DNA of 64,000 nt from Heterostelium pallidum (lineage: Eukaryota). Each line of letters begins with the position of its first letter. The first letter of the stretch is position 1. Location of the stretch: NCBI RefSeq assembly GCF_000004825.1, contig NW_008805086.1, forward strand, positions 965,410-1,029,409. Direction: 5' to 3'. The notes beneath the pieces were generated by a model that had not been told where the DNA came from, made no database searches, and worked only from the letters and a program-made list of their open reading frames with translations. Below are positions 2,880 through 61,885 of this stretch, in pieces. The translations under genes and the position numbers were made by a program.

Positions 2880-3314
2880 TCTTTAAAATAATCTTGTTTA
2901 TATAATAAATAAAAAACAATTATAATAACAAAAATAATAGAATAATAATTAAACTAAAAATGTTATAACAACAAAACTAAAAAAATCAAACAAGTGTGTT
3001 TGTTTGTTTTTTTTAAATATAAATAATATGATTTACTACTTAAAATAATCACAGAATTATTCAATTTAGTTAATTGTTTAATTATATAATAATTTGTTTA
3101 TCTATTAAAGAAAAAGAAAAAATATTGTTTGGATTGCTCTGAATTGTTGTAATTAAAACAAAAAAAAAAAAAAGAGAGCGCCAAAATTTTAAATTTTTGT
3201 CAGAAAAAAATGAAGTTAAACAAAAAAAAAAAAAAAAAACAGAATTCTTAGTAAAAAAAATGTAGTTTATTTGTTATCTCTGTTAAGAGAATTGAATTTA
3301 ATACTAATGTAACA

Positions 3315-3480
3315 TTTAAAAGTGATTGACAATTATCGATATCATATCTTGAGATCAACAATTCTTTAGATTCTCAAAGATTTTCTTTTGGGATTCAATA
3401 AAGTCAGGGTTACTCATTAATGACATAATATTTGATATTTCATTGTCTTCATAATATTATTATTATTATTATTATTTATT
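3315..3480. repeat. Diverged direct (tandem) duplicate of the 3'-terminal coding end plus 3' flank of the PARP-like gene; the original copy is ~3530..3700.
   Basis: About 165 bp at 3315-3480 aligns at ~85% identity with 3530-3700 (shared 'aaaagtgattgacaat...ttttcttttgggattcaa(c/t)aaagtcagggttactcattaa(a/t)gacataatatttgatatttcattgtcttca'). Period is ~215 bp. Confidence 0.7.
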
Positions 3481-3576
3481 TATGTACATAAAAGAGATCT
3501 ATGAAAGAGAATTAAGATTGTTAATGTAATATGAAAAAGTGATTGACAATGATTCCCAAGTATCGATATGATACAC

Positions 3577-4749
3577 TTATTTCTTTAGACTTTCCAATAT
3601 TTTCTTTTGGGATTCAACAAAGTCAGGGTTACTCATTAAAGACATAATATTTGATATTTCATTGTCTTCATTATTATCATTGTTATTATTATTACTATTA
3701 TTACTATTATTATCGATACCAAAATGTCTAAATTTGTTGGTTCCATTGGCATTTCTGGTTGTTGGAATGGGATAGGATAGAGGAATTGCTGTAGTTGGTG
3801 GTGGTGGTGGGTGTTGACGGTTGGTTCGTGGTGGTGGTGGTGGTGGCGGCGGTGGTTGACGGTAAATACTTGTGGTTGATAGTGTTGATTTTATCGATGT
3901 ATTGGATGTTGGCATACCACGGGTATAAGCGTCTGAATATGTAATCAGATACTCGGGATAGGCACGACCGTTCTCATAGATGGTAAATATATCACCGCCT
4001 TTATAACTGTCGTAGACACCACGACTTGTGAGATCAGCCATCTGATCAAAGGGCACCGATAAAGCCATTGCACAACTACCTAGTAGCACACGACAATAGA
4101 ACATCTGGTAGATATTGCCTTGGCTCAACGTGTGTCGGTATCCATTGCTGTAGCTAGCGTTCATCGCAAAGTAGTGTGCCTTTCCGAAGCTGCCATAATT
4201 GGAAAACGACAGGTCGAAACCGACAGGATGATCATAGATCTCCGAGGGTCTGTGCGTTCTGGTTCCATGGTAGAGTCGTGATTCAACGATGACGGAACTA
4301 CTTGCATTGTAACGCTTCATCAACTCTAGACACTTGCTATGATAGCTACGCCAGAGTGTTTTGCTCTGAACACGCTCCACCTTTGTAATGTTGAAACTTG
4401 GAAGTGTTTCTCGAAAGTGTTGATGTATTTCATAGAATTCGGTGCCGGATCTGTCGATTTCAACCAATCTGACCTGCTCCTTTTGTGGTAACAGCCAGTA
4501 GAATGGAAAATCATGTTTCTCTGCTATTGCTTCCAGACCAAGTGTATCTACTACTTCGGTTTTGATTGTACTTTTTATAGATTTTCGTTGTGTGTCATCT
4601 TTCAATTGTTCAAAACTACTTTCTTTTTCTCTTATTCTCTTTTGACGTGATGATGATGATGAAGATGTTGCTGAATCTGTTGCTCTTGTAGTCGTCGTCG
4701 TTGTAGTTGAATCATTTTCAGATTTTTTTGGGAGTAAAATGAAATCCAT
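3577..4749 (-). CDS. PARP catalytic-domain protein of the mono-ADP-ribosyltransferase type (TIPARP/PARP7-like), 390 aa, single exon.
   Basis: ORF with ATG in a caaATGg context. Catalytic-like block LYHGT...GFDLSFSNYGSFGKAHYFAMNASYSNGY...QMFYCRVLLG shows the H-Y-(I/L) pattern of mono-ARTs. It is flanked by poly-Thr/Ser at the N-terminus and poly-Pro/Asn at the C-terminus. Confidence 0.65.
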   Translation of the reverse strand: MDFILLPKKSENDSTTTTTTTRATDSATSSSSSSRQKRIREKESSFEQLKDDTQRKSIKSTIKTEVVDTLGLEAIAEKHDFPFYWLLPQKEQVRLVEIDRSGTEFYEIHQHFRETLPSFNITKVERVQSKTLWRSYHSKCLELMKRYNASSSVIVESRLYHGTRTHRPSEIYDHPVGFDLSFSNYGSFGKAHYFAMNASYSNGYRHTLSQGNIYQMFYCRVLLGSCAMALSVPFDQMADLTSRGVYDSYKGGDIFTIYENGRAYPEYLITYSDAYTRGMPTSNTSIKSTLSTTSIYRQPPPPPPPPPRTNRQHPPPPPTTAIPLSYPIPTTRNANGTNKFRHFGIDNNSNNSNNNNNDNNEDNEISNIMSLMSNPDFVESQKKILESLKK

Positions 4750-15780: not shown

Positions 15781-18700
15781 TTTCAACTCAATATTGTAGT
15801 GGTGATGATAAGATGATTCATGAAGATAAAGAAACATTAGGTACCGATCAATGTATGGAGGATGATGTCTCTAACGATACTTCAAATGAATCTATTATTT
15901 CAGCTAATGACCCACCAACACCAACCACTACTACCACTACCACTACTACCACTTCCACTTCCACTACTACTAATAATAATAATGACTATTACAAATTCTT
16001 TAATATTCGTAATAGATCAATGTCATTCACTCTATTTCCTAGTGTAGATTTGTAAGTATACTTTTTAATTATTCAAAGATCTAATATTCACTGACATTAA
16101 TTTTTTTTTATTTTTTTTTTTTTAAATAGATTTAATCCATTCAGTTTGATGTATTCTGCCAAAGACATTAGAAGAATCATCAAAGCCGAGGATGGTATGA
16201 CTGATATCCAAGTTATAAGATCTATTTTAAAAGTAGATTTCCTCAGGAGAATATTTGAAGCCAATCCGATCGATGTACATATCAGAACAAACGGTTATTC
16301 AGGTGGTGTTGTGTTTAAAAGCAAATCAAAAAAAGTTCAAAAACAATACGAATTGAGTAAGTTGATAGATATTTATAATCTAGTTTGTATTTTTTTTTTA
16401 CTAATCAATTTTTTTATTTTATTTTTTTTTAAAGTTGGTTTAAAAGACATAAAAGATAAAGAAGTACTTACTGAAGAACAATTTGAACAACTTGGTGTAG
16501 TAGTATGTGATCCAGCACCAAACCACAATGTTTGGTTAAATAACAAACATCCGTTTGCAAACGGTGATTATTCTTTCCGAAAGAATGTCATTGACGTGAA
16601 GTCTTCAACGCATCACTTTCAATCCGAGTCTGGTCTGAACAAACACAAAAAGAATAAGCTACTCGGTCACGATTTAATGAAATGGCAGTCTGACATACCT
16701 TCAGTCAAAGGTAATATCATTTTTCACAAGATTATCAAATTTTGTTTATCTTACTAACTATAAATACTATTTATTTTGATTTTTTTTTATCATAGGGTCC
16801 AGTACAAACAATATTACAGATCTTGTAATATATGAAAAACGATTGGAATTTATATTCAAATCGGTTTTTTTACCACCAGAACAAAGAAGTTCAGATATCA
16901 AACCATATGGTACTCTAAGGGCAGTCGGAGAAGAGAAAAAGAAAGAGCAACGAGTCTGCCTCTCAAACAACACCACCATTCCATATCACTCAAACCAGCA
17001 TAAATCCGTCTTCCATCAGTATCGACAATGTCATGGTGATGCGTGGCAAAAGGTTGATTTGGATCGATCGCGATCAAAGAAGCACAGTGAATCATTAAAT
17101 TCGAAAAAATTGTTCAACTTTGCATTGCAATCGATTCCTATCAAGCAGTTAACTCATGATCCAATGCAGATCGATTCCACCGATCCCAATGATCCAAAGC
17201 AGATCGACTCCACCGATTCCAATACTCCAAAGCGCGTGCCAAAGTTGGTATTCAAGGGTAACAATGTACCCATCCAATCCGACAGGGAATCATCTCAAGA
17301 GAAAAGTGGTGCCAATAAGATGAAGCTACGACGCGTTGGATCTCCCATCAAAGTGAGAAAAGTATATATTCACTTACTTCGAGAACACCTCGGCAAGCTT
17401 GACGATGGCTCACTGGAGCGATTCATGGATCGATTCAAATTTGTGCTAGATATAACCTATTTGCAAGATGATTTTACGAATCTACAGAAAGAAGCATTGC
17501 TAAAGTTCCTCAAGGATCACAAACTCGAGTTCCTCGAACCAATCGACGAGTCCAATGTACGATTAATTGATATACAGACTGCAATTCACTATTATGGAGT
17601 GGAGCTCATCCAACAAGCAATGGATATATGGAAATTCTTTAAGTTTACCGAACCATTGCCAGGTAATCAAGGTGTGGAAAAAGAAGTAGATTTCAAAGAT
17701 GGCATAAATAGAGTCGAACAAATTACAACAACTTTCAGGAACCAAGCGTTTCAAAAGTTTTGGTTCAGACGTATTCATTTCGAACGGTGCAAATGGCTAA
17801 AGGATCATGGAATTAAGATCATGCCAGATAGTGTCGGAGGTCACTGGATTAGACCAAATCAATCAAAAGTGGACGCCAATGAAGACAGTATTTACCAACT
17901 ATTACCAGTCTTTAACGGCTTGACAATTTTGGTCATGGTATCTAACGGTACAGATGAAGGAAAAAAGGTAGAAAGAACATTAATCGGTCGAATTAAATTG
18001 AATGGTGGAAAGTACACTAGGGATGTAAATGGCACATTCAACTTTATGGTTACTGACAAGAAAGATTGGGACAGCACACCAAACAAAAAGGCGAGAGAGA
18101 TCTGTAAGGTGAAGAATATTCCAGTAGTTTCCAATGCCACTTATATTACAGATTGCCTGAGACAACATGTGTATCTACCTCTACTATCGTATGATCTGTC
18201 GTCAGCTGCCAACACTACCAGTAGTGCTGCGAAGGTTTCACCAAGCAAGAAGAGTGGTTCCAAGACAGCTACCAACACTACCAGTAGTGATGCGAAGGTG
18301 ACACCAACCAACAAGCGTATCGACTCACCCGCTCCCTCCATACCGGATCTTCAAACAAAAAAGAAGTCCAAGAAGACCGACAATACCGACAAGAAGTCTA
18401 TCGATAGCGATGAAGACAAAGACAATCATCCGAAATCCCGAAAGAAATCAAGTAAGTAATTAACTATTTGTTATTTTTCAAATTAAAACAGTTCATTAAT
18501 ACCAATATAAACACTTTCATTCTTTATAGAGAATAAGAAAAGAGGTAGATGGAAGTGTTTATGTTGTGGAAAAACCAACAATTTCAAACGATTTACTGAT
18601 GTACATTACAAAGTTCTCCACTGCAATCACTGTTTATTGGTACACATCCCTTTTAAAGATCGAAAAGCTGCCAAAGAATCAGTTGATAAAACTAGAGTCG

Positions 18701-27649: not shown

Positions 27650-30456
27650 CAGTAGTAATAATAATAGTTCGACGACGACAACAACAACAACAACAAAAAC
27701 TAATTTAAACAGTAGAATACCACCGAATAAAGGTAATACAGGTGGAGGTATACCAAACTTTATTGAGTTGGAGCAATGGTATCTGGAAAACTATCATCTT
27801 CCATTGATACAAAATAGAATCAATGAATTCATAAGAAACAATCCAATCGATGAAAATGACCAAGATAACACTGACTATTATCAAAAGTTAAATACTCTAT
27901 CAATGCCAAGAGTATCACCGATTATCATCATCGAGAATTTTGAATCTTGGGACAGTCAAATCATACAAGATCTTTTATATTTATTAAGGTAACTATATAT
28001 CAAGTTATTAATATTATCATTTTAATTGCAGTAATACTTATTATAATATATCCATATATCTAAATAGTACATATAGACAAAGTATACCATTTGTAGTTAT
28101 TTTCTCAATCTCAACAACAGAAGATACTATATATAATACATTATCCTATGAAACAATATCGATGTTAAATATTAAATCATTCTCACTATCTCCTCAGACT
28201 CAGCTGTTTGAGAGATTCGTTTACGATATCTTTGTAAAGGATCAGCTGATATCATTTGGCCCACAAGTCTACAAGTTCATCTATGAAAGCTTTAAGAGCA
28301 ATCATCTCTCTGTTATCTACACAACAAGACAGCTGCTCTATTCAATTCACGAACATTTCTACTATAATACCTTTAGTTTCCTTTGTTACGACGATGTAAT
28401 CAACCTGAAAAAGCAAAAGACTACCAATGCTCAGATTGGATTCAAAGCATCCGCTAGAAGTGGTACCTATCGTTACAAGTATGGTGATGATGAAGATGAT
28501 GAAGCTGAATCATATCACTTTGATTACAACACCAAGAAAAACAACAATAATAATAATAATAATAATAATAATAAGAGTAGTAATAGTAGTAACCAAAGAC
28601 GTAGTAAAAATAGAGATGAAAGTGAAGAGGATGAGTTGGATGAGCAAAAGCAAATCGATGATGACAACAACGATAACAACACCGAGAAGGAAGAAGAAGA
28701 AGAAAAAGTGGAAGTAGAAGATGAAGAGGAGGATGAAGACGATGCAGATAATAATGATATCGTATTTAGGTTGACCAATTGTCGTTCAGAGTATACCGGC
28801 TCTGATAGTACTGACAACCAGACATCTTATACCGACGATAACTCTGACTCTGACACTCTAGAATACCAAAGACTGATGACTTACAACAGTAACTATTACA
28901 ATCAAAACAATCAGCAATATCGTAGCATTGTTCCACTGTCTCAGCTGAGTAACACCACTCAACAACAACAGCAGCAGCAACTCTACCGTCAATCTGCACT
29001 TCCACTGAAGGATCTCAGTAAGGATCACATCACTCGAATTCTGCAGACAAAGTCGGTGGTCGATGACATGAAGACATGGGATCCTGCACTTAAAAAGAAG
29101 TGTTTGAACCGACCGAATAGCATCCGCTATGTCATTCCAGTGTGGATCGAGAATCTCTTTGCAATTCGATATATTAAACAACATTGTATCGAGTGTTACT
29201 ATATCATACTGCAACTGATGTATCCAAATATTCTCTACAGTGATATACTCTATCATTTCGCAAACAAAGATTACAATACTCTTACACAACTAAAAAGATT
29301 CTTAAAGTTTGTATAATAAGAGATTAACTGAAAAAACTAATTAATTGGTTAATTCTAACATTTATAAATATTGTAGTAAAGAGAAACCAGATAATTTAAT
29401 TATGATTGTTTCAAAGTGGATTGGTATATTGACAAAGTTAATCGATCACACATACTATCCAGAGAGATATCAGATGTTTGCAACTACTATACTTGGTAAA
29501 GAACCAAACTTTAATAACTTTGTTAGAACTCAACGTGCAGTCTCTAAATACATCGAAGATTGTAAATTGGTTATACAATATCTAAAGGAATCGATGAATG
29601 AAGCAATGAGTAGCAAAACAGCAACCACTAAAGAAGATCATAACGACACCACCGATCAATCTAAAACATCTACAAATCAAAAGAAGAGAGTGTAAGTTTA
29701 ACTATCTATCTATTTAAAAAGGATTAATGATCAATCATTCTAACATATTATTATTATTATTATTATTATTATTTTTAAAAAGTGATAGATCAAAACGTTC
29801 TAACCAAAAAAAGAAAGAAGCAACTCACCATGAAATGGCATTAATGAAATTGAATGAATTATTGAATATTTTCATTTAGTAAGTTGTTATTTATTAATAT
29901 AGTTGCAACCTTTTTGAAACAGATAACTAATTAATTGATTTTATTTATTTTTAAAGCGATTATATTGATAGAGATTTAAGTTCGTTGCCGATGAGTGAGA
30001 TATATCATAGTGATCGTATTGATAAGCTGAGCAAAGTATTCAATGTAAATCATACACAAGACATCAAAAAGCAGATAATGAACTCCTCAGAGATATTAGG
30101 TTGCACCAAACCAAGATGTTGTGGAAACAATGATCCAAAGAAAGCTGGTACCACACCTAAAAATACACCAAAGACAGAGGATATCACGATTATGTATTCA
30201 CTCTACACAGAGTTTGGTAGATTTATCAATCTTTATGATTGGCTAACTTCGTTCTGTATGGTTTTCAACAACACCGGTGAACATACTCCAGAACTACAGT
30301 ATTTATCAAAACAATAATTATAATTGTAACTATACTAACTTGATTAATACCATGTATAGAGCTAGATTTTCATCGTCATTAGATATTTTACAATATCTTG
30401 GACTTATACAACGAACAAATAAGAGAACTGACCATGTTATTAAAATCCACTATTGA
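26189..30456 (+). CDS. orcC: Origin recognition complex subunit 3. Exons are join(26189..26413,26502..26723,26805..27988,28077..29306,29377..29691,29783..29878,29957..30298,30360..30456); one or more 5' exons carrying the ATG are unresolved.
   Basis: The ORC3 family match runs along the protein: LFKHARYQNFVRYRSS, IIIIENFESWDSQIIQDLLYLL, IPFVVIFSISTTEDTIY, the C-terminal GRFINLYDWLTSFCMVF, and the terminal ARFSSSLDILQYLGLIQRTNKRTDHVIKIHY (compare human [31 protein letters not shown]). All eight junctions keep phase. The first resolved exon encodes a Cys-rich finger CVVCSNAPTEVNTFDVCVNCESHYHSKTCCRVHDHQRLCINC. Intron 4 needs a non-consensus GTTTGT donor. Confidence 0.75.
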
Positions 30457-30466
30457 ACATATATAG

Positions 30467-30669
30467 GATTTGACTTTATCAACATTAACATAATCAAAAC
30501 AGTACACAATGACTCATCAGATATAACAGGAGTTTAACTATACTTTTAGTATAAAATAACTCTTAATGATGACACATTTGTTAATATCATCCCAATGATT
30601 AAACATGGTCTGGAAAGGTAGTTAACTTGAAGGACTTGTCTGATTAAATATCTCATCATAAAATAAATA
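30467..30669. repeat. Left arm of a ~203-bp inverted repeat, which is also the ORC3 3' UTR.
   Basis: The reverse complement of 31887-32089 matches 30467-30669 with only 2-3 mismatches over ~203 bp. Confidence 0.85.
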
Positions 30670-31288
30670 CATGTTCTATTTTTATTTATGTTAAACACTC
30701 CATTGAGGTAAATCTTATTTATTAAAAAAATAATTCAATTAGATTCATTGATTCTGTTAACATATCCACAAATCTAGTAATTAAAACATAAAAAAAAAAT
30801 TATCTAAACATGTGTTTTAAAATATAAAAACAACGTAAAAATAAAGATATTAATCACAACTAATATATTTTCAAAAACTTAGTAATAATAACAAATAAAA
30901 TAAGATGTATTAAATAAAACAACCACATAATATAATATTTATTTGTAAAAATTCAATCATTTTTTTGTACAGAAATCATATAAAGATTATTAATAATAAA
31001 TATAACCTTGAATATGATTATAATTTATGTAGTCTAATATATATTTTTAAAACAATGGTAATAATAATAGACTGTAAAAGCAGTCTCATTAGTTTACGTA
31101 TTATTGTACAACCTCTTAAAGAATGAGTCATGCCTATTACCTTTCTATTCTCAGTTTGTAAATATTAGTTCAACTGTTGTTTATATGTGTAGAATCTAAC
31201 TTTATAGAATGTATTTAAACAAGTTATTCTCATTACTTTTAAATCATTCAAAAAATAACTTTATTTAAACAATAGTTTTCTAAACAAA

Positions 31289-31753
31289 ATGAAGATTGCA
31301 TTATTTTCTCTATTATTGGTTGCTTTGACATGTTTGTCAGCAGTAAACTCAACATTTGTTGTTGGTACATGTGATTCAAGCAAGTGTGGTGCCGGTCAAG
31401 TTTGTATCTGTGAAGGTGGTGTCAGTCACTGTGTCTTGTTGGATCAATGCCATGATGTTGCCATCGTCCAAACCATTGAACACAGTTGGGTTGAGAATGG
31501 TCAATCATTCACTTTATACCGTGTCCACGTCTTCAACTATGGTCCAAGAACCTTGAAGAACATTGCCATCCAAACTGATTGCACTTTGGACCCACGTGAT
31601 CAAAACTCTGTCTGGAACATCGAATATCACAATGGATTCTTCTCACTTCCATCATATGGTCAAGGTATTGCCACTGGTAAAGAGTTTGTCTTTGGATACA
31701 TTGATCGTGGTATGCGTTCTCCAAATCTCTTTATCCGTGCTCTCCAATATTAA
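31289..31753 (+). CDS. Small secreted Cys-rich protein, 154 aa, possibly with a carbohydrate-binding-like beta domain.
   Basis: ATG in an aaaATGa context. Signal peptide MKIALFSLLLVALTCLSAVNS, then six Cys in ~30 aa (TCDSSKCGAGQVCICEGGVSHCVLLDQCH), then a Trp/Tyr-rich domain. Single exon, lying between the two inverted-repeat arms. Confidence 0.6.
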   Translation: MKIALFSLLLVALTCLSAVNSTFVVGTCDSSKCGAGQVCICEGGVSHCVLLDQCHDVAIVQTIEHSWVENGQSFTLYRVHVFNYGPRTLKNIAIQTDCTLDPRDQNSVWNIEYHNGFFSLPSYGQGIATGKEFVFGYIDRGMRSPNLFIRALQY

Positions 31754-31799
31754 ATTTAAATAAATCAATATTTATTTTTTTTCCTTGAATTAAATTGTA

Positions 31800-31864
31800 A
31801 ATTTAATTATGATTGTTTCAAAGTGGATTGGTATATTGACAAAGTTAATCGATCACATACTATC
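31800..31864. repeat. Duplicated fragment of ORC3 exon 5 (source ~29393..29459).
   Basis: 'aatttaattatgattgtttcaaagtggattggtatattgacaaagttaatcgatcaca(ca)tactatc' occurs in both places, identical apart from a 2-bp deletion. Confidence 0.8.
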
Positions 31865-31886
31865 AATTTGTTTTTTTTATCTTTTA

Positions 31887-32089
31887 TTTATTTTATGATG
31901 AGATATTTAATCAGACAAGTCCTTCAAGTTAACTACCTTTCCAGACCATGTTTAATCATTGGGATGATATTAACAAATGTGTCATCATTAAGAGTTATTT
32001 TATACTAAAAGTATAGTTAAACTCCTGTTATATCTGATGAGTCATTGTGCACTGTTTTGATTATGTTATTGTTGATAAAGTCAAATCTT
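31887..32089. repeat. Right arm of the inverted repeat, an inverted copy of the ORC3 3' UTR.
   Basis: See the left arm at 30467..30669. Confidence 0.85.
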
Positions 32090-32378
32090 ATGGGAATAGA
32101 TTGGACGAATACTGAAAAAAAAACTTTTTTTGTAGCGAAAAAAAAATAACGGAAAAAAACGAACGAAACAGAAGTTCGTCTATCCTGTTATAAATAAAAT
32201 TAGAAAATAACTTAAATAATAATAAAAGAATCTAATAATAAATTTAATTGTCTGATTTCATAGTTAATCATTGTGGTTGATTCATTTACATTTTTTCTAA
32301 GCAGTATCTTTCCATTAGTTTTTTTTTAATATTTTTTGATTTGATTTAACTTATAATCAGCAAAGTTAAATATTTAAA

Positions 32379-33682
32379 ATGGAATCAAATAATAATAACA
32401 ACAATAGTAGAGATATTTTATTTAAAGAAAGAAAAGATAAATGTCAATTTGCTAGATGGTATAGCACATTTAGACGATTGACATTTGAGAGTGTTATCAT
32501 TGAATTGCCAAAGATCGTAGTGGATTACTTGAATTCCGATCACTTCTCAACAGAGACAACATCGTTCCCAAAGTACAAGTTGGACGATTATGAAGATGAC
32601 ATTGGTGACGATGATGAACAATGGTCCACTCCTGTAGGAAAGAGTAAAGAATCATCAATGTTTAATAAGAAATATTATCAATCTTATGATTCAGATGATG
32701 ATACTGATGATTCAGATGATGATAAAGTAGAAGATAATAATAACAATAATAGAACCAATGAAGTAAAGATAGATCCACAACAACTAAAGAGTTTTACAGA
32801 CAAAATAGATGAAGCAATCAAGAAACTAGGTGGTGAATGTGTTCCAAAGTTGAATTGGTCATCACCGAAAGACGCTACTTTCATGAACATCCACGCCAGT
32901 CTAAGATGTTCTAGCAGTTCAGATATACTATTACTCCTAAAGAGTTCTGATTTTATTAATCATGATCTCGCTCAATTGTAAGTAGGGTAGAACCATCCAC
33001 AACAACTGACAGCATTATGGAAATTACAAACTAACAATCACAACATTTTAGTGATAATGATATTAAAGATTTACAACCAGATGATATTACACCACTAACA
33101 TTGGTACTGAGAAGATGGGCAAACGTAAATATTGCATTGGAATTTAGATGTTTCATTAAAGACAATCAATTGATTGCAATTAGTCAACGTGATACCTCTG
33201 CATTCTTTGATTTCCTGCCAGCAAAGAAAGAATTAATACAATCAAAGATCAAATCATTCGCAGAACAACATATTATTAACAAATTCAATGATGTTTCATG
33301 TAAGTTGATCAAATAACAATCAATTAGATAGCAATTTAATTAACTTTATTATTATTATTACGTTTGTTTAGATTGTTTCGATGTATGTTTCTTGGATACC
33401 AATTTAAATACGGTTACATTGATGGATTTCAATCCGATTCATCCTTCGACAGACAGTTTACTTTTTGATTGGTACGAGTTGTTCCCAGAGGAATTGGAAC
33501 ATCAAGAGATTGATGAATCTGTGAAACCATTGGAACATTTCGAATTTAGAATAGTGGAGAGCAACGAAGGTATAAGACCTAATCTATCAATGTCAAGTCG
33601 ATTACCAAGTGATCTTGTCAACATGCAATCAACTTCTGAAATCAATGAAATGTTATCGAAATTTAAAGATCACAAAATATAA
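32379..33682 (+). CDS. cdc123: Cell division cycle protein 123 (CDC123/D123). Exons are join(32379..32977,33052..33299,33372..33682).
   Basis: Family motifs CQFARWYSTFRRLTFESVIIELP, CVPKLNWSSPKDA...LLLLKSSDFINHDL, LRRWANVNIALEFRCFIKDNQLIAISQRD and DFNPIHPSTDSLLFDWYEL. Two GTAAGT introns (74 and 72 nt) keep phase. Confidence 0.85.
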
Positions 33683-41456: not shown

Positions 41457-42875
41457 ATGGAAGATGTATACAATATTGAGAAGAGAAAACAAATATTTGA
41501 AGTTTTATCAAATAATTTAGAAATAAGATATTTAAAGTATATATGGGTGGATCTATCAAATTTTATTCATGTAAAAGTTATTAGAACCAAGTATTTATTG
41601 GAGCACCAATGCAAATATTTTTCGTTTGGTACCAACTTTCTGTTTTTGAGATGCTTTGACAATCTTTCCAATGTTATAATTCCACCAGAGGACAAAGAAA
41701 CTTACTTTGTTCCAGATTGGAATACATTCCATGTGAATTCTTATCAAAAGGGAATTGCAAGTGTGTTTGGTTCGATCTATAGAATGAAGAAAGTAGTTTT
41801 AGGAAATGGAAATTCGTTCATACAGTGTGAACCATATGAACACTGTCCAAGAAATATTTTAAAAAAAGCAGAGAATACACTGTCGGAAATTCATATTGAT
41901 GGTGAAACTGGTATCAGCTTGAAAGGTTCATTTGAAGAAGAGTTCTATTTATTACCATTGGATACACCAATACCTGAAGAGGCTAATTCCGAATTAATAC
42001 CTGGATACAGTTTATACCATGTGGATGATCACATAGAGATCCTAATTGATATGGCCAAACACTTGGAGGATCAAGGTGTGCCGAATGAACAGATTCTGCA
42101 TGAGGGTGCACCAAACCAATTTGAAATAACAGTGCCTTACACATCGATCATGGAAGCATGTGATCGTCATATCATTGTGAGAAGTACAGTTCATGCTATT
42201 GCCAAGAAACATGGATATCAAGCCACTTTTATTCCTAAACCATTTAAAAACGACCTTGGAACTGGTTGCCATGTTCATCTTTCTCTGTGGAACAAAGACA
42301 AGAATTTAGTACCAAATCTAACTCATTCAACTAATTTATCAAACATTGCAAGACGTGCGATCAGTGGTATATTGCATCATGCTAGAGGTCTAACTGCTAT
42401 TTTCAATGCGTCTGTAAACTCATATCAACGTTTGAAGCCTATGACCTGGTCTGGAGGTGCCATTTGCTGGGGTGTCAATAATAAGGAATCGATGATTCGT
42501 GTTCCACACAGTGCATACACATTCAGTAACTTTGAATTGAAATCATTGGATCATAGTGCCAATGTGTATGTGGCAATGGCAGCCACTATATATGCAATGG
42601 TTGATGGAATGATTAGTGATAGTATAAAGATGCTTCCTCCAATTACCAAATACCCGTGCCAATATACTGACAGTGAAAGAGATAACCTAGGAATAAGACA
42701 GTTTCCTAAAACTCTTGGAGAAGCAATCAAAGAACTTGGCTCAGATACCTTTTTGATCAAAATGATGGGTTCCGAATTTATAGAGACCTTTTGTGCTATC
42801 AGACAATTCGAACAAGATTTTCTTAAAGGCAAGAGTGATTATGAAATTATTAAACTCTATTACAAACTGTATTAA
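41457..42875 (+). CDS. Glutamine synthetase family protein (type-I-like glutamate-ammonia/amine ligase), paralogue 1 of 3, 472 aa.
   Basis: Beta-grasp N-terminal domain (IRYLKYIWVDLSN) and catalytic-domain motifs GSFEEEFYLL, HVHLSLWN, NSYQRLKP and NNKESMIRVP (GS 'NRSAxIRIP'). Confidence 0.8.
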   Translation: MEDVYNIEKRKQIFEVLSNNLEIRYLKYIWVDLSNFIHVKVIRTKYLLEHQCKYFSFGTNFLFLRCFDNLSNVIIPPEDKETYFVPDWNTFHVNSYQKGIASVFGSIYRMKKVVLGNGNSFIQCEPYEHCPRNILKKAENTLSEIHIDGETGISLKGSFEEEFYLLPLDTPIPEEANSELIPGYSLYHVDDHIEILIDMAKHLEDQGVPNEQILHEGAPNQFEITVPYTSIMEACDRHIIVRSTVHAIAKKHGYQATFIPKPFKNDLGTGCHVHLSLWNKDKNLVPNLTHSTNLSNIARRAISGILHHARGLTAIFNASVNSYQRLKPMTWSGGAICWGVNNKESMIRVPHSAYTFSNFELKSLDHSANVYVAMAATIYAMVDGMISDSIKMLPPITKYPCQYTDSERDNLGIRQFPKTLGEAIKELGSDTFLIKMMGSEFIETFCAIRQFEQDFLKGKSDYEIIKLYYKLY

Positions 42876-43302
42876 TAATAATAAAGGTAGATTTCTTGGT
42901 TCTAGAAAGAAAAAATAATTTTAAAAAAAAAATTTTTCATCAACAATTTTTTAAAAAAAAAAGGAATCATTATTTGAAAAGATGTTACTTTGTGTATTCA
43001 TAAATCTGAGACAAAAAAATTGGTGAAAAAGATCACTTTTCAGTTTTTTTTTTCTTGAACCAATCATAAATTAAATGGGCAGTTGAACAAAAATGAAAAT
43101 ATTTGTTTGTGTTTAGTTGTAAATTGGCATTGGTTGAAAAGATCCGGGAACCATGTTTTATTATTATAATCTATCTATTCGAGGTTTCTGCTTATTGTTC
43201 GTAAAGTTGAACAAAAGGTGTACCACAGACATATAAATAAGAAAATCAATCTACAACAATTTTAAATTACATAACTTTTTTAAATCAGTGTTTATTCAAC
43301 AA

Positions 43303-44724
43303 ATGGAAGAATTGAATAATGAAAAAAGAAAACAAATATTTGAATATTTATCAATACACACAGAAATTAGATATCTAAAATATATTTGGATTGATCTTTC
43401 CAATGTTATACACTCGAGAATCATCAGAACAAAATATTTGCTAGAAGAACGATGCCAGCACTTCCCTATTCTCATTACCTTCCTTTATTGGCGATGCTTC
43501 GACGGAAGAATAAGTCCAGCGGTTGATTATAAACTCGAAGAATCTGAAGCTTACTTTTTGCCAGATTGGGGAACATTCCAATTGGTTTCATATCAAGCAG
43601 AGACTGCACAGGTTTTTGGGTACATTTATCAAATTAAGAGAGTGGCTCAGCCTGATGGTGCTTTCAAGACTCACTATGATGCCGTGGATTGTTGTCCTAG
43701 AACCATGCTGAAGAATGCAGAGAAAATACTTTCGGAGATCCATATCGATGGTGCAACTGGTATCAGCTTGAAAGGTTCCTTCGAAGAAGAATTCTATCTA
43801 CTTCCTTTTGGTACGTCATTGCCTGAAGATTCTAGTTATGAATACAGACCATGCTTTAGCCTTTATCATACAGATGAATACTTTGAGATTCTAACTGACA
43901 TTGAGAAACACTTGGAGGCTCAGGGTGTGCCAAATGAACAGATTATGACCGAAGGTGGACCAAACCAATTTGAAATAACAGTGCCTTACACATCGATCAT
44001 GGAAGCATGTGATCGTCATATTATCATCAGAAGTACAGTTCATGCAATTTCCAAGAAACATGGATATCAAGCCACTTTTATTCCCAAACCTTACAAGAGT
44101 TACCCTGGAACTGGTTGTCATGTTCACCTTTCTCTGTGGAACAGAACCAATAATTTAGTTCCAAATCTCAGTCATCCAAATGGTCTGTCAAACATTGCAA
44201 GACGTGCGATCAGTGGTATATTGCATCATGCCAGTGGTCTGGCTGCTATTTTCAATCCAAATGTAAACTCATATCAACGTTTGAAACCATTGACTATTTC
44301 AGGTAATTTTATATGCTGGGGTATCGGTAATAAGGAAGCGATGATTCGAGTTCCACCATGTTCTTATACATTCAGTAACTTTGAATTGAAATCAATGGAT
44401 CATAGTGCCAACCCGTATTTGGCATTAGCTGCAACTATCTATGCAATGGTCGATGGAATGATTAGTGATAATATTAGGATACTTCCCAACATTCCAACAT
44501 TTCCAACACTCTACACCGAAATAGAAAAAGAGGAACTGGGCATTAGAGAAAATCCTAGATCTCTTGACGAAGCAATCAAAGAACTTAGATCAGATACCTT
44601 TTTGATCAACATGATGGGTTCTGAATTTATCAAGAACTTTTGTGCTATTAGACAGTTCGAACAAGATTTTCTTAGTGGCAAAACTAATCATGAAACCGCC
44701 AAACTCTATTACAAATTGTATTAA
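43303..44724 (+). CDS. Glutamine synthetase family protein, paralogue 2 of 3. The start is taken at ATG 43303 (MEELNNEKRKQ), not at the GTG at 43288.
   Basis: About 75% amino-acid identity to paralogue 1, with the same motifs. Stretches are identical at nucleotide level (for example 'ccaaaccaatttgaaataacagtgccttacacatcgatcatggaagcatgtgatcgtcatat'). Confidence 0.8.
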   Translation: MEELNNEKRKQIFEYLSIHTEIRYLKYIWIDLSNVIHSRIIRTKYLLEERCQHFPILITFLYWRCFDGRISPAVDYKLEESEAYFLPDWGTFQLVSYQAETAQVFGYIYQIKRVAQPDGAFKTHYDAVDCCPRTMLKNAEKILSEIHIDGATGISLKGSFEEEFYLLPFGTSLPEDSSYEYRPCFSLYHTDEYFEILTDIEKHLEAQGVPNEQIMTEGGPNQFEITVPYTSIMEACDRHIIIRSTVHAISKKHGYQATFIPKPYKSYPGTGCHVHLSLWNRTNNLVPNLSHPNGLSNIARRAISGILHHASGLAAIFNPNVNSYQRLKPLTISGNFICWGIGNKEAMIRVPPCSYTFSNFELKSMDHSANPYLALAATIYAMVDGMISDNIRILPNIPTFPTLYTEIEKEELGIRENPRSLDEAIKELRSDTFLINMMGSEFIKNFCAIRQFEQDFLSGKTNHETAKLYYKLY

Positions 44725-58711: not shown

Positions 58712-61700
58712 TCATTTCTTTTTATTAAACTTTTTCTTTTCGTTGTTATTCTTTGAATTATTCTTTCCAATGCTGAAATTTTGAGATGAATTTGTCGTCG
58801 ACTTTGAAGATTTACTCTTTGAGTTAAAAATCATGTCAATATCATCCATATCTGCATCTTGATTTGATTGATCATTCATATCATCGCTACCAATCTTTTC
58901 TTTTTTAACTTTAACTGGTACCTTATCTTCATCTTCATCTTCATTTTCATCTTTGTTAGAATGTTGATAAATATTCTTTTGTTTCTTTAGTGGTTGTTGT
59001 TGTTGTTGTTTGGTGCTGGTAGTACTGGCACCATCATCCTCTAAGATATCTTGGAAGAGTTTTCTCTTTTTATCGGTGGTTGCTTGCGAACTTGCCCATT
59101 GATCCTTCTTTTTCTTAAAGACGTTGATGTGACAGATCAAGAGAACATAACGACCAGCGGGTGTGCTGAACAGACGTGGCTCTTCTTTGGCCAACTCCTC
59201 ACAGATCATCTCCCTAAGACTGAGATCGGATAACTTGTAGATTCTCTCCATTACAAAGGATCCGCATTTATCAACACCTATATCTGGGAATCTACCCTTT
59301 AACTTTTTGATGAACTGGTGCTTTCTCTCTACTGTGATACCGCAATCCAAGAATGCATCCAATACTTTGCTACCGACTGGATCGACTGCCATCACCACCA
59401 ACTGATCGCTTTCCAATTTCATAAAACTATCGATAATATATTGAGTGTAATCAACATTAAAGAATAACAATTTTTGTAAGATAATCGCACCACACATTGA
59501 ATACTAAAATGATTATTTAAAAAATATTAATATTAATGTTTTGCCAGTCACCTGGTAAATAATAGAAAAGAAGATAATACCTTTTTGTTCTCTGTAATAT
59601 TATGTTCAAGATATAATAACTTGTTTACAATATCTTTGATATCAGTTTGAACGTTTGGTAATACTGCTGCATTCAATATCTTTATCAACTCTCTTTGTTG
59701 TGCATTCATTCTTAAACAACATTCAACCAATTTTTGAACGATTTGACCTCTTCCCATATCTAGATATCATCAGCAGCAGTAGTAATAGATTCAATTGTAT
59801 TAATAGACAGAATCAAATACAACATATCTAAATATAAATACCTATTAGTTTTTTAAAATTGTCTTTAAGCTCTTGGATCAATGTTGCCAATTGTGCATTA
59901 TCTCTAACGTTTTCAATCAATGATTTAACAACATGATTCGATACTAAATCCTCAGAGAACTTTACCAACTGCAATCTCATCAATGAGAATATTCTTGAAT
60001 AACTTGTGTTTGGACATGACTATTTGATAACAATAAGTTAGTTAAACTATAATTATGGAATATTTATAAATATTCGTACCTTTAAAATAGATTCAAAAAT
60101 AAGAGAACCAAACTTATTATAGATAACCTCTAAGAATCTATCTTTTTCAGTTTGACCTTCATTCTGTGGTGTTAAAATGGTATCGAGAATACTGTTGAAT
60201 AGTTCGGTGTTACTGCAAGATAGCTCAATGATTGTCTTTATAGTCTCTCTTGTCTTATTGTTGAAAATCAATAAAGGTAGTTTCTCTTTCAACGTTTCAT
60301 GAATAGTAGTCAAAGCAGCTTGGATCTTCTCTTTATATGCAGTAGGTGCTTCATATGATTGAACTATTATCTCTCTTTGTTTTTCTTCTTCTGATTGCTA
60401 TAAAATTGTGTGATTTGTTTATAACTATATAAATAAAACTTCTATTGGTATCACGATATTGTTGATTACCTACATTATGTTTACTTCCTTTCGATGTTGA
60501 AAACTTCTCGGTAACGGTACCACTCATAATATTGAATAACTTTGATAATACAAATGGTGCACTTCTATCTTCAATTACACTACTGATATTTTCAACAAGA
60601 ATCTAAAAAAAAAGAAAAAAAAAAAAATATTTATTAGATAAAATAAACATAAATATTATATATTATTAATACTTACATCAACAAGTTTAAATAAGATCTC
60701 TTGGAATTTGATAAGATCAGATTTCTTGGCTTTGGCAATGATTACAGGGATTTGAACAATGATAGACTCCAACACTCTGGAACCATTGACGTGAGTGGCA
60801 ACTACCATAAAGTCGTATTGTAGCATCGAAGCAATCATGATAATCTGTGATGGCAATGCACGCTTCAAAATACCTTCTAGGATGAAACTACAGATACGAT
60901 CTGTAGCAACCAATGTTGCTTTGCTCTCGATCTCTTTCAGTGCATTCTCAATGATGATATTATGATCTAACTCGTCGGTATCGTCATCGTAATCCTTTGG
61001 TTTATCGGTGATAACCTCATTGATCTTCTCTAAATAGTTTCTGGTTTGTGTATCGACCTCTGTTACTTTGAAACTCTTCTTTTCTGTTGTAGTATCGGTA
61101 TTATCTTCATTGTCATCCTGTTGTTGTTTTTCATTGTAGAATGGGTTATCACCGCCGCCGCCTCTTTTGTTTCCACCTTCTCTTTTGGTTTGTGATTGCT
61201 GCTGTCCACCAGAGTAGAATTGATTATCGGCTGCATCCTTTCTTCTATTGTTTCCGCTGTTGTTGTTGTTTCCATCTACGCCTGGACAATCTCTTGAAAT
61301 ATGACCTGGTTGATTACATTTGAAACAATTACGATCGTTTCCACCAGCTCTACTTGAGATAGAGGACGATGACTCTGGACAATCTCTCGAAATATGACCG
61401 GTTTGATTACATTTGTAACAACTACGATCGTTTCCACCAGCTCTACTTGAGATAGAGGACGATGCCTCTGGACAATCTCTCGAAATATGGCCAGTTTGAT
61501 TACATTTGAAACAAGCACGATCATGACCAGTACTACCACCCTTTTGATTTCCTCTATTACCTCCATTATATTGGTTATTATTGTTATTATTATTTTTATA
61601 ACCACCTGACGATGCCTCAGGGCAATCTCTAGATATATGACCTGTCTGATTACATTTGAAACAAGCACGATCATTTCCTGCTCCTCCACCCGAACTACGA

Positions 61701-61885
61701 TCGTTTCCACCAGCTCTACTTGAGGAAGATGACGATGCCTCAGGGCAATCTCTCGAAATATGACCTGTCTGATTACATTTGAAACAAGCACGATCATGAC
61801 CTGTTCCTCCACCTTTTTGATTACCTCTAGGTCCTCTATTACCTTTCTTATCTATTCTAAAAAAATCATCATTATTATCTGACAT
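58712..61885 (-). CDS. Nop9-like Pumilio-repeat RNA-binding protein with six N-terminal CCHC zinc knuckles. Exons are complement(join(58712..59503,59581..59759,59842..60019,60080..60397,60474..60602,60677..61885)).
   Basis: Six C-X2-C-X4-H-X4-C units (CFKCNQTGHISRDCPE) sit in exon 1, followed by Puf-type repeats (NGSRVLESII, DPVGSKVLDAFLD, DKCGSFVMERIYK). Five AT-rich introns of 60-82 nt all keep phase. The C-terminus is a Lys/Asn/Asp low-complexity tail. Confidence 0.75.
61280..61830. repeat. Tandem ~120-bp nucleotide repeats encoding the CCHC zinc-knuckle units of the Nop9-like gene.
   Basis: The block 'ggacaatctct(c/a)gaaatatgacc.gt.tgattacatttg(a/t)aacaa..acgatc...ccaccagctctacttgagatagaggacgatg' recurs four to five times. 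Confidence 0.7.

What the first reader, a model, noticed from the sequence alone, without database searches (positions are those of the whole stretch)
30457..32100. Near-perfect ~200-bp inverted repeat built from the ORC3 3' UTR plus a duplicated ORC3 exon fragment, bracketing a secreted Cys-rich gene
The sequence right after the ORC3 stop (30467-30669) recurs in inverted orientation at 31887-32089 with about 98% identity. Immediately inside the right arm (31800-31864) lies a 65-bp copy of ORC3 exon 5 (source 29393-29459; 2-bp deletion). The ~1.2-kb interval between the arms holds a single-exon gene for a signal-peptide-bearing Cys-rich protein (31289-31753). The near-identity of the arms implies a recent event. 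It could be a foldback or MITE-like mobile element that captured host sequence, an inversion-duplication, or an inserted gene cassette. If the region is co-transcribed the arms could form a ~200-bp hairpin, with possible antisense or siRNA effects on ORC3 or cdc123.
Basis: seen in the sequence. Interest (0 to 1): 0.6.

Follow-up and report, generated by a model that had tools for sequence, protein, structure and literature searches.

The report
Local inverted duplication beside ORC3
In the social amoeba Heterostelium album, about 290 bp copied from the ORC3 gene lies 1.2 kb downstream, which makes a 207-bp inverted repeat around an ordinary cellulose-binding-protein gene; it looks like a one-off repair scar rather than a mobile element, though each arm also carries an untested snoRNA-like motif.

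Summary
The arms are 30463-30669 and 31885-32091, 207 nt, with 204/207 positions matching. A 65-nt direct copy of an ORC3 coding exon (31800-31864, source 29393-29459) lies 20 nt inside the right arm. The window is Heterostelium album PN500. The enclosed gene is PPL_04545, an intact secreted CBM49 protein. Its closest paralog is only 91% identical in protein, so the gene is much older than the near-identical arms.

There is no target-site duplication, no other arm copy in 64 kb, and all four homology boundaries are sharp. All four differences between copies lie within 42 nt of junctions of the right-hand block.

Best reading: a recent one-off templated insertion. A break between PPL_04545 and cdc123 was patched with two pieces copied from ORC3. 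An 8-T run beside the right arm leaves an RNA/cDNA-mediated version open.

Unexpectedly, each arm contains the only canonical box C/D snoRNA-like unit in the window. No Rfam match, homolog or target supports it, so it remains a hypothesis.

The MITE/foldback and inserted-cassette readings are not supported. A cloning or assembly artefact cannot be excluded. Interest is low to moderate.

The parts
30463..30669 (+). Left arm of the inverted repeat. It begins 7 nt after the ORC3 stop codon and is the presumed source copy and presumed ORC3 3' UTR. ATTAAA lies at 30643-30648 and AATAAA at 30662-30667, near its inner end.
   Evidence: (I1). GC is 27% against 19% in the spacer to its right.
31885..32091 (-). 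Right arm, the reverse complement of the left arm (204/207). It is the presumed derived copy and lies 288 nt upstream of the cdc123 ATG.
29393..29459 (+). Source of the duplicated fragment, inside a coding exon of ORC3 (peptide NLIMIVSKWIGILTKLIDHTY...).
   Evidence: (D6). The exon aligns with Acytostelium subglobosum ORC3 residues 889-949, E = 4e-5.
31800..31864 (+). 65-nt direct copy of the ORC3 exon fragment. Its only difference is a 2-bp CA deletion 7 nt from its right end. It forms a 9-bp palindrome with the sequence just upstream (AATTAAATT gta AATTTAATT, 31788-31808).
31865..31884 (+). 20-nt T-rich filler (AATTTGTTTTTTTTATCTTT) between the exon copy and the right arm. On the minus strand it reads as an A-rich tail (AAAGATAAAAAAAAC) directly after the arm.
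   Evidence: No specific template in the window. Only about 2% of intergenic-like positions lie 1-7 nt 3' of a run of 8 or more T.
31289..31753 (+). PPL_04545, a single-exon gene for a 154-aa secreted CBM49 (cellulose-binding) protein with 7 conserved cysteines. AATAAA at 31759-31764 lies before the inserted block.
   Evidence: (PF09478, 60.4 bits against a cut-off of 23.4)
30566..30643 (+). Box C/D snoRNA-like unit in the left arm. The C box AUGAUGA is at 30566-30572 and the D box CUGA at 30640-30643, 67 nt apart. There is a 4-bp terminal stem (UUAA 30563-30566 with UUAA 30644-30647). GC is 31%.
   Evidence: (only hits in 128 kb of both strands; 0.395 expected per window in shuffles). No Rfam match.
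31911..31988 (-). Identical box C/D snoRNA-like unit in the right arm, divergent from cdc123.
30350..30456 (+). Last exon of ORC3 (QARFSSSLDILQYLGLIQRTNKRTDHVIKIHY*), with the stop at 30454-30456.
   Evidence: It is 84% identical to the C-terminus of Acytostelium ORC3.
32379..33682 (+). cdc123 (D123 family, three exons), the gene downstream of the right arm.

Best explanation
This is a recent, one-off, repair-associated templated insertion and not a mobile element. The ancestral order was ORC3, PPL_04545 (CBM49), cdc123. A break or stalled fork in the spacer just after the PPL_04545 polyadenylation signal was patched with a 292-bp block (31800-32091). The block is assembled from two templates in the neighbouring ORC3 gene. 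One is 65 nt of an internal coding exon, copied in direct orientation. The other is the 207 nt that start 7 nt after the ORC3 stop codon, copied in inverted orientation. A 20-nt T-rich filler joins them. The inverted repeat around PPL_04545 is a by-product of this event. The copying was error-prone near the switch points, or used a slippage-prone polymerase or reverse transcriptase. That explains why every difference between copies lies close to a junction. Shown here: the anatomy, the ORC3-to-copy direction for the exon fragment, the absence of transposon hallmarks, and the greater age of the enclosed gene. Inferred: that both pieces arrived in one event, that the right arm is the copy, and the repair mechanism. 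Likely consequences, none tested: no effect on the three coding sequences, a substrate for inversion of the 1.2-kb interior by recombination between the arms, a long hairpin only if ORC3 transcription reads through PPL_04545, and a second copy of a candidate box C/D snoRNA gene if that motif is real (my estimate about 0.35-0.4).
For: The repeat anatomy is confirmed. The exon-fragment source is genuine ORC3 coding sequence conserved in Acytostelium, so that piece was copied from ORC3 to the right-hand site. The simplest account puts the adjacent right arm, 20 nt away, in the same event. No direct repeat of 5 nt or more flanks any candidate insertion. Homology ends abruptly at all four boundaries, where flank alignments score no better than shuffles. 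Both templates lie within 2.7 kb of the acceptor site and have mixed orientation. The three substitutions lie 3, 22 and 41 nt from the right arm's outer junction, and the inner 165 nt are identical. The chance that all three fall in a given terminal 42 nt is 0.008. The only indel is a CA-repeat slippage 7 nt from the exon copy's right junction. PPL_04545 is intact with conserved cysteines, and its nearest paralog differs at 14 of 154 residues, so it predates the arms' last common sequence. The block starts about 35 nt after that gene's AATAAA. There are no tRNA genes or other repeat families nearby. The retrotransposons described for P. pallidum are mostly tRNA-targeted, and DIRS-1 is missing from its assembled sequences (PMC5006619).
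Against: No pre-insertion allele or close relative was available, so polarity, junction microhomology and the single-event assumption are inferred. The H. album assembly is not in the contig look-up. In A. subglobosum and D. discoideum, ORC3 and cdc123 are not neighbours. Gene conversion between inverted arms could keep an old repeat near-identical. The genome-wide copy number of the arm is unknown, because only 64 kb were searchable. The origin of the 20-nt filler is unexplained. If the snoRNA-like unit is a real, independently transcribed gene, the right-arm position (intergenic, divergent from cdc123) looks more like an original gene site than the position just after the ORC3 stop.
Confidence: 0.55

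Rival explanations
1. RNA-mediated version of the same event. The right arm is a 5'-truncated retrocopy of the polyadenylated 3' end of the ORC3 mRNA, and a second ORC3 cDNA piece was captured at the same break. This would be templated-sequence insertion or endonuclease-independent retroposition. If the snoRNA-like unit is real, the right arm would be a snoRNA retroposon.
For: Both copied pieces lie inside the ORC3 transcription unit. The arm ends 21 nt after ATTAAA and 2 nt after AATAAA. In the copy it is followed on the sense strand by AAAGATAAAAAAAAC. Only about 2% of intergenic-like positions lie that close to a run of 8 or more T in the required orientation. Non-LTR retrotransposons, and so reverse transcriptase, exist in P. 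pallidum (PMC5006619). RNA-derived patch insertions and snoRNA retroposons with A-rich tails are documented in mammals (PMC5110952; PMC1687206).
Against: There is no target-site duplication. The A-tract is short and interrupted by G and T although the copies are otherwise almost identical. The exon fragment sits on the far side of the A-tract in the opposite orientation, which fits neither simple target-primed reverse transcription nor, from my own knowledge of that model, twin priming. No intron is spanned, so loss of an intron cannot be used as proof. A/T runs are common in this genome (97 runs of 8 nt or more in 64 kb).
Confidence: 0.2
2. An older inverted repeat maintained by selection or gene conversion because it is functional. 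For example, two copies of a box C/D snoRNA gene, or a hairpin or antisense regulator of ORC3, PPL_04545 or cdc123.
For: A canonical C/D unit is present and identical in both arms. It has AUGAUGA and CUGA 67 nt apart and a 4-bp terminal stem. These are the only such hits in the window, against 0.395 expected per 128 kb in shuffles. These features fall within the ranges reported for D. discoideum snoRNAs, which are mostly intergenic (PMC8817022). The inner 165 nt, which hold the unit, are free of differences while the outer 42 nt have three. Arm GC (27-31%) exceeds that of the surrounding spacer (19-22%).
Against: There is no Rfam match even at E <= 10. No homolog was found downstream of ORC3 or around cdc123 in A. 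subglobosum or D. discoideum. A metagenome scan for guide plus D box returned only coding-sequence chance hits. Motif-only prediction is weak: 577 candidates gave 47 real snoRNAs in D. discoideum. C'/D' boxes are unclear. The arms show no unusual folding (z = -0.65 to -0.15). Selection on a snoRNA would not explain perfect identity of its flanks, or the co-located ORC3 exon fragment.
Confidence: 0.12
3. Cloning or assembly artefact. The 292-bp block comes from a chimeric or rearranged clone or read of AT-rich DNA and does not exist in the PN500 genome.
For: The block is a patchwork of two nearby sequences in opposite orientations joined by low-complexity filler. All differences cluster near block ends, as low-quality read ends would. 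No independent assembly could be consulted. From my own knowledge, dictyostelid DNA is prone to rearrangement in E. coli clones.
Against: The window has no Ns or gaps. Flanking sequence on both sides is unique and continuous with intact genes. A purely computational duplication would be 100% identical. The inner 165 nt and 58 nt of the copies are clean.
Confidence: 0.1
4. Foldback, MITE-like or other DNA transposon with 207-bp terminal inverted repeats that carries PPL_04545 and a captured ORC3 fragment.
For: It has long, nearly perfect terminal inverted repeats around a 1.2-kb interior. The genome-wide copy number could not be checked.
Against: There is no target-site duplication and no second copy in 64 kb. 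No transposase is present; the only interior ORF with a Pfam match is a host CBM49 gene with diverged paralogs. The left terminus starts 7 nt after a conserved stop codon, so the ORC3 3' end would have to be element-derived. The ORC3 exon fragment shows that at least part of the right side was copied locally.
Confidence: 0.03

Closest known systems
Complex templated insertions from replicative template switching (FoSTeS/MMBIR) or patch repair of double-strand breaks; class 2 templated sequence insertions (PMC5110952)
   Same: A short insert is assembled from two or more nearby templates in mixed orientation. There is no target-site duplication. Filler nucleotides sit at a junction, and mutations are concentrated near the breakpoints.
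   Different: Junction microhomology could not be assessed without the ancestral allele. An A/T tract next to one piece is not a class 2 feature. I know of no described example in dictyostelids (own knowledge, not searched systematically).
Mammalian snoRNA retroposons (snoRTs; Weber 2006, PMC1687206) and class 1 templated sequence insertions
   Same: The copy holds a snoRNA-like unit with flanking host-gene sequence, ends near a polyadenylation signal and is followed by an A-rich tract.
   Different: There is no ~14-bp target-site duplication. The tract is short and impure. The snoRNA itself is unverified. An extra inverted exon piece lies beyond the tail. The donor would be a 3' UTR and not an intron.
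Dictyostelium discoideum box C/D snoRNA genes (PMC8817022)
   Same: The C box is AUGAUGA and the D box CUGA. The C-D distance of 67 nt falls within 50-97 nt. The location is intergenic, GC is about 31-32%, the terminal stem is short, and the C'/D' boxes are weak.
   Different: There is no expression data, no predicted target and no match to the Rfam families. The left copy lies just after a stop codon, where the D. discoideum genes are described as intergenic or intronic.
Foldback elements and MITEs
   Same: Long terminal inverted repeats flank a short interior.
   Different: There is no target-site duplication and no multiplicity in the available sequence. The interior is an old host gene, and the arms are local unique sequence.

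Membership tests
MITE / foldback DNA transposon | Terminal inverted repeats | tested here: met
   207-nt arms, 98.6% identical. This feature alone is not diagnostic.
MITE / foldback DNA transposon | Target-site duplication directly flanking the termini | tested here: not met
   No shared direct k-mer of 5 nt or more within 6 nt of the boundaries.
MITE / foldback DNA transposon | Multiple dispersed copies in the genome | tested here: inconclusive
   No further copy in the 64-kb window.
MITE / foldback DNA transposon | Interior non-coding or transposase-derived | tested here: not met
   The interior holds an intact CBM49 host gene, and its paralogs are 91% and 65% identical.
Box C/D snoRNA | C box RUGAUGA and D box CUGA at 50-100 nt spacing | tested here: met
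   AUGAUGA at 30566-30572 and CUGA at 30640-30643, with a 67-nt gap. The range is from PMC8817022.
Box C/D snoRNA | Terminal stem next to the C/D boxes | tested here: met
   A 4-bp UUAA/UUAA stem. These are the only hits with a stem of 4 bp or more in 128 kb, against 0.395 expected in shuffles.
Box C/D snoRNA | Guide complementary to rRNA or snRNA, placing the target 5 nt upstream of D or D' | tested here: inconclusive
   H. album rRNA was not available.
Box C/D snoRNA | Match to a curated family, or conservation in relatives | tested here: not met
   No Rfam hit on the arms at E <= 10. No homolog in loci L001-L003. Metagenome hits were coding-sequence coincidences.
Box C/D snoRNA | Stable ~70-110-nt transcript bound by fibrillarin/Nop56/Nop58 | not testable with these tools
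   No expression data were available.
Processed retrocopy / snoRNA retroposon / class 1 TSIP | Poly(A) tail 10-30 nt downstream of a polyadenylation signal | tested here: inconclusive
   An A-rich 14-mer (12 A) follows the arm, 21 nt after ATTAAA. The chance of such adjacency is about 2%, but the tract is impure.
Processed retrocopy / snoRNA retroposon / class 1 TSIP | Target-site duplication of 5 bp or more | tested here: not met
   The criterion is from PMC5110952 and PMC1687206.
Processed retrocopy / snoRNA retroposon / class 1 TSIP | Intron loss in the copy | not testable with these tools
   Neither copied piece spans an intron.
Templated insertion by template switching or patch repair | Insert composed of copies of sequences found elsewhere, with sharp junctions and no target-site duplication | tested here: met
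Templated insertion by template switching or patch repair | Microhomology or small deletion at junctions relative to the pre-insertion allele | not testable with these tools
   No empty-site allele or close relative was available.
CBM49 carbohydrate-binding proteins (the enclosed gene) | Pfam PF09478 above the gathering score | tested here: met
   60.4 bits against a cut-off of 23.4, residues 58-138. The database names it PPL_04545, a carbohydrate-binding-domain protein.

The most novel reading that the evidence does not exclude
The left arm holds a genuine, unannotated box C/D snoRNA carried in the ORC3 3' UTR, and the right arm is an RNA-mediated retrocopy of that polyadenylated transcript. 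This would be a snoRNA retroposon in a social amoeba, showing that snoRNA genes can spread by retroposition outside vertebrates. The resulting convergent or inverted pair could also feed the RNAi pathway.
Probability: 0.07. Interest if true: 0.55.

Novelty: new member of a known kind. Interest (0 to 1): 0.27.

Why it matters
As a repair scar it is a clean, datable example of a complex templated insertion in a compact, AT-rich protist genome. It shows how inverted repeats around genes can arise without transposons. It also warns against calling MITEs from terminal inverted repeats alone. It creates a substrate for inversion of a cell-wall or matrix gene and, if the region is read through, for double-stranded RNA. 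If the C/D motif is a real snoRNA, the locus records a very recent snoRNA gene duplication and would add to the snoRNA set of a species for which I found no snoRNA catalogue. None of this bears on a long-standing open question.

Tried and rejected
1. Finding the paralog (PPL_03280) locus or an independent copy of this contig. The look-up of encoding contigs has no H. album records.

2. Synteny. The cdc123 loci of A. subglobosum and D. discoideum and the ORC3 locus of A. subglobosum were fetched. ORC3 and cdc123 are not adjacent there, no CBM49 gene lies nearby, and there is no arm homolog. These species are too distant (42-51% protein identity) to polarise the event.

3. Rfam, at gathering scores over the whole window and at E <= 10 over 29000-33000. 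Nothing falls on the arms. A weak SNORD79-like hit at 32061-32140 (23 bits against a gathering score of 47) is noise.

4. A metagenome scan for the D-guide plus D box returned seven hits, all in coding-looking sequence with no box C upstream.

A tentative resemblance to a 25S region turned out not to be the conserved Am1133 site.

6. The DUSE promoter motif at the right arm's outer edge. There are 8 matches in the window against 13.8 expected, so it is not meaningful.

7. TATAAAA at 30550. It is only about 10 nt from the predicted 5' end, too close to count as promoter evidence.

8. Twin priming as an explanation for the inverted exon piece. The geometry does not fit, because the A-tract lies between the two pieces.

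9. A template for the 20-nt filler. Only low-complexity near-matches were found.

10. Supplement of PMC8817022 searched for guide or target k-mers. It holds no sequences as text.

11. Aspegren 2004 is not held in the library.

12. The bacterial-type promoter and terminator scan is uninformative for this eukaryote.
Full report
**Observation**

The repeat finder and a self-BLAST give inverted arms at 30463-30669 and 31885-32091. They are 207 nt long with 204 matching positions (E = 7e-101) and are separated by 1215 nt. A direct copy of 29393-29459 lies at 31800-31864. It is identical except for the loss of one CA from a CACACA run. Neither sequence occurs anywhere else in the 64-kb window, and this is the only long high-identity inverted repeat in it. 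The window contains no Ns.

**Context**

- The enclosed ORF (31289-31753) is 100% identical over its 154 residues to PPL_04545 of Heterostelium album PN500, formerly Polysphondylium pallidum. The annotated model is 170 aa because of a 16-residue N-terminal extension.
- PPL_04545 has a Pfam CBM49 domain (60.4 bits), an N-terminal hydrophobic leader and seven cysteines conserved in its two paralogs.
- The paralogs are PPL_03280 (91% identical) and PPL_08917 (65%), both on other contigs.
- Upstream lies ORC3 (Pfam ORC3_N and ORC_WH_C). Its last exon is 84% identical to the C-terminus of Acytostelium subglobosum ORC3 and ends at TGA 30454-30456. The left arm therefore begins 7 nt after a conserved stop codon.
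- The duplicated 65-67 nt lie in a coding exon that aligns with Acytostelium ORC3 residues 889-949.
- Downstream lies cdc123 (D123 family), with its ATG at 32379.

**Is it a mobile element or an inserted cassette?**

The evidence argues against both readings.

- No direct repeat of 5 nt or more flanks the whole unit, the right-hand 292-bp block or either arm alone.
- Homology stops abruptly at all four boundaries. Local alignments of the flanks score no better than shuffles.
- The window has no tRNA genes, which matters because most dictyostelid retroelements target them. DIRS-1, the dictyostelid element with inverted termini, is reported missing from the P. pallidum assembly (PMC5006619).
- The interior gene is intact, and its closest paralog differs at 14 of 154 residues. 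The arms differ at 3 of 207 non-coding positions. The gene is therefore much older than the last common sequence of the arms and was not recently copied in from elsewhere.

**Anatomy of the right-hand block**

Reading the plus strand, the elements appear in this order:

1. The PPL_04545 stop at 31751-31753 and AATAAA at 31759-31764.
2. About 35 nt of spacer.
3. The ORC3 exon fragment (31800-31864, sense).
4. A 20-nt filler, AATTTGTTTTTTTTATCTTT.
5. The reverse complement of the 207 nt that follow the ORC3 stop.
6. Unique sequence up to cdc123.

The exon fragment must have been copied from ORC3 to this site, because the source is conserved coding sequence. The right arm lies 20 nt away and derives from the same gene. 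The most economical history is a single event that built the whole 292-bp block from two ORC3 templates in opposite orientations.

All four differences between copies are close to junctions of that block. The three substitutions lie 3, 22 and 41 nt from the outer junction, and the inner 165 nt are identical. The probability that all three fall in a given terminal 42 nt is 0.008. The single indel is a dinucleotide slippage 7 nt from the exon copy's right end.

Nearby templates, mixed orientation, filler, no target-site duplication and junction-proximal errors together form the pattern described for template-switching or patch-repair insertions. The class 2 templated sequence insertions of PMC5110952 are one example. 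FoSTeS/MMBIR is another, from my own knowledge.

**An RNA-mediated variant**

On the minus strand the right arm is followed by AAAGATAAAAAAAAC. The arm ends 21 nt after ATTAAA and 2 nt after AATAAA. Only about 2% of intergenic-like positions lie that close to a run of 8 or more T in the required orientation. Both copied pieces lie inside the ORC3 transcription unit.

This leaves room for a cDNA-derived patch, that is, a 5'-truncated retrocopy of the ORC3 mRNA 3' end. Several points weaken it:

- The tract is short and impure.
- There is no target-site duplication.
- The inverted exon piece lies beyond the tract, which fits neither simple target-primed reverse transcription nor twin priming.

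I rate this variant at about 0.2.

Each arm contains a canonical box C/D snoRNA-like unit, at 30566-30643 on the plus strand and 31911-31988 on the minus strand.

- The C box is AUGAUGA and the D box CUGA, 67 nt apart.
- There is a 4-bp terminal stem, and GC is 31%.
- A pattern scan of both strands of the window finds only these two hits. Dinucleotide shuffles give 0.395 per window, or about 0.001 for a 207-bp segment.
- The features fall within the ranges reported for the 47 D. discoideum box C/D snoRNAs: length 66-113 nt, C-D distance 50-97 nt, mostly intergenic, weak C'/D' boxes, and a terminal stem in only 25 of 47 (PMC8817022).

The evidence against it is substantial.

- That study also shows how weak motif-only prediction is: 577 candidates yielded 47 real genes.
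- Rfam gives nothing on the arms even at E <= 10.
- No homolog lies near ORC3 or cdc123 in the two other dictyostelids I could fetch.
- A metagenome scan for guide plus D box found only coincidental coding matches.
- I could not obtain H. album rRNA to test the guides.
- The DUSE-like motif at the right arm's edge is not significant, and the nearby TATAAAA is too close to count as a promoter.
- The arms are not unusually structured.

I put the probability of a real snoRNA at about 0.35-0.4. If it is real, the event duplicated a snoRNA gene. The perfect identity of the inner 165 nt could then partly reflect constraint or gene conversion.

**What it does**

Most likely it does nothing selected. 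The three coding sequences are untouched, and the block lies after the PPL_04545 polyadenylation signal and 288 nt before the cdc123 ATG. Possible consequences, none of them tested, are:

- inversion of the 1.2-kb interior by recombination between the arms;
- a very stable hairpin (arm duplex -329.5 kcal/mol), but only if ORC3 transcription reads through an entire gene that has its own terminator;
- an extra snoRNA copy.

**Remaining rivals**

- A cloning or assembly artefact is a real possibility for a patchwork block in AT-rich DNA whose differences sit at block ends. I could not consult reads or a second assembly (about 0.1).
- An old repeat kept alike by gene conversion or selection is possible (about 0.12).
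- A transposon is unlikely (about 0.03).

**Verdict**

The MITE and cassette interpretations are not supported. The one-off rearrangement reading is supported, and I refine it to a local two-template insertion derived from ORC3. It is a new instance of a known kind of structural mutation and is of modest interest. The unverified snoRNA-like unit and the possible poly(A) tail are the only leads that could raise that interest.

Noticed in passing
window 30466, 30485, 30504 (= 32088, 32069, 32050): The three arm mismatches are spaced exactly 19 nt apart (G/A, T/A, A/G) and all lie in the outer 42 nt. The regular spacing is unexplained and may be coincidence.
   Followed up: partly
window 31788-31808: There is a perfect 9-bp palindrome, AATTAAATT-gta-AATTTAATT. 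Its right half is the first 9 nt of the ORC3 exon copy, so a short hairpin sits exactly at the left junction of the inserted block.
   Followed up: no
window 32088-32095 (minus strand): TCCCATAA matches the Dictyostelium upstream sequence element consensus and straddles the right arm's outer boundary, about 100 nt upstream of the C box. The motif is no more frequent in the window than chance predicts (8 found, 13.8 expected).
   Followed up: yes
window 32095-32111 and 32168-32180: An imperfect inverted repeat (AATAGAttggaCGAA ... TTCGTCTATCC) brackets an A-rich, CGAA-containing stretch in the cdc123 upstream region. Its significance was not tested.
   Followed up: no
window 31127-31300: The database model of PPL_04545 (170 aa) adds a 16-residue N-terminal mini-exon (MSHAYYLSILSFFLNK). 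Both paralogs lack it and start at the signal peptide, so this is probably an annotation error.
   Followed up: partly
window 41457-42875 and 43288-44724: Two tandem glutamine-synthetase-type genes (Pfam Gln-synt_C) about 75% identical at the DNA level, an older tandem duplication.
   Followed up: partly
window 61282-61856: A 93-bp tandem repeat (2.6 copies, 92% matches) with more diverged copies extending to about 61856. It was not characterised.
   Followed up: no
L001 (A. subglobosum cdc123), L002 (D. discoideum cdc123), L003 (A. subglobosum ORC3): ORC3 and cdc123 are neighbours in H. album but not in A. subglobosum or D. discoideum. In A. subglobosum, ORC3 is followed after 275 bp by a 1367-residue gene with only faint ankyrin-repeat Pfam hits.
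   Followed up: yes
window 3305-3693 and 18203-18318: Further short direct repeats (179 nt at 83% identity and 53 nt at 87%) were seen in the self-BLAST and not examined.
   Followed up: no
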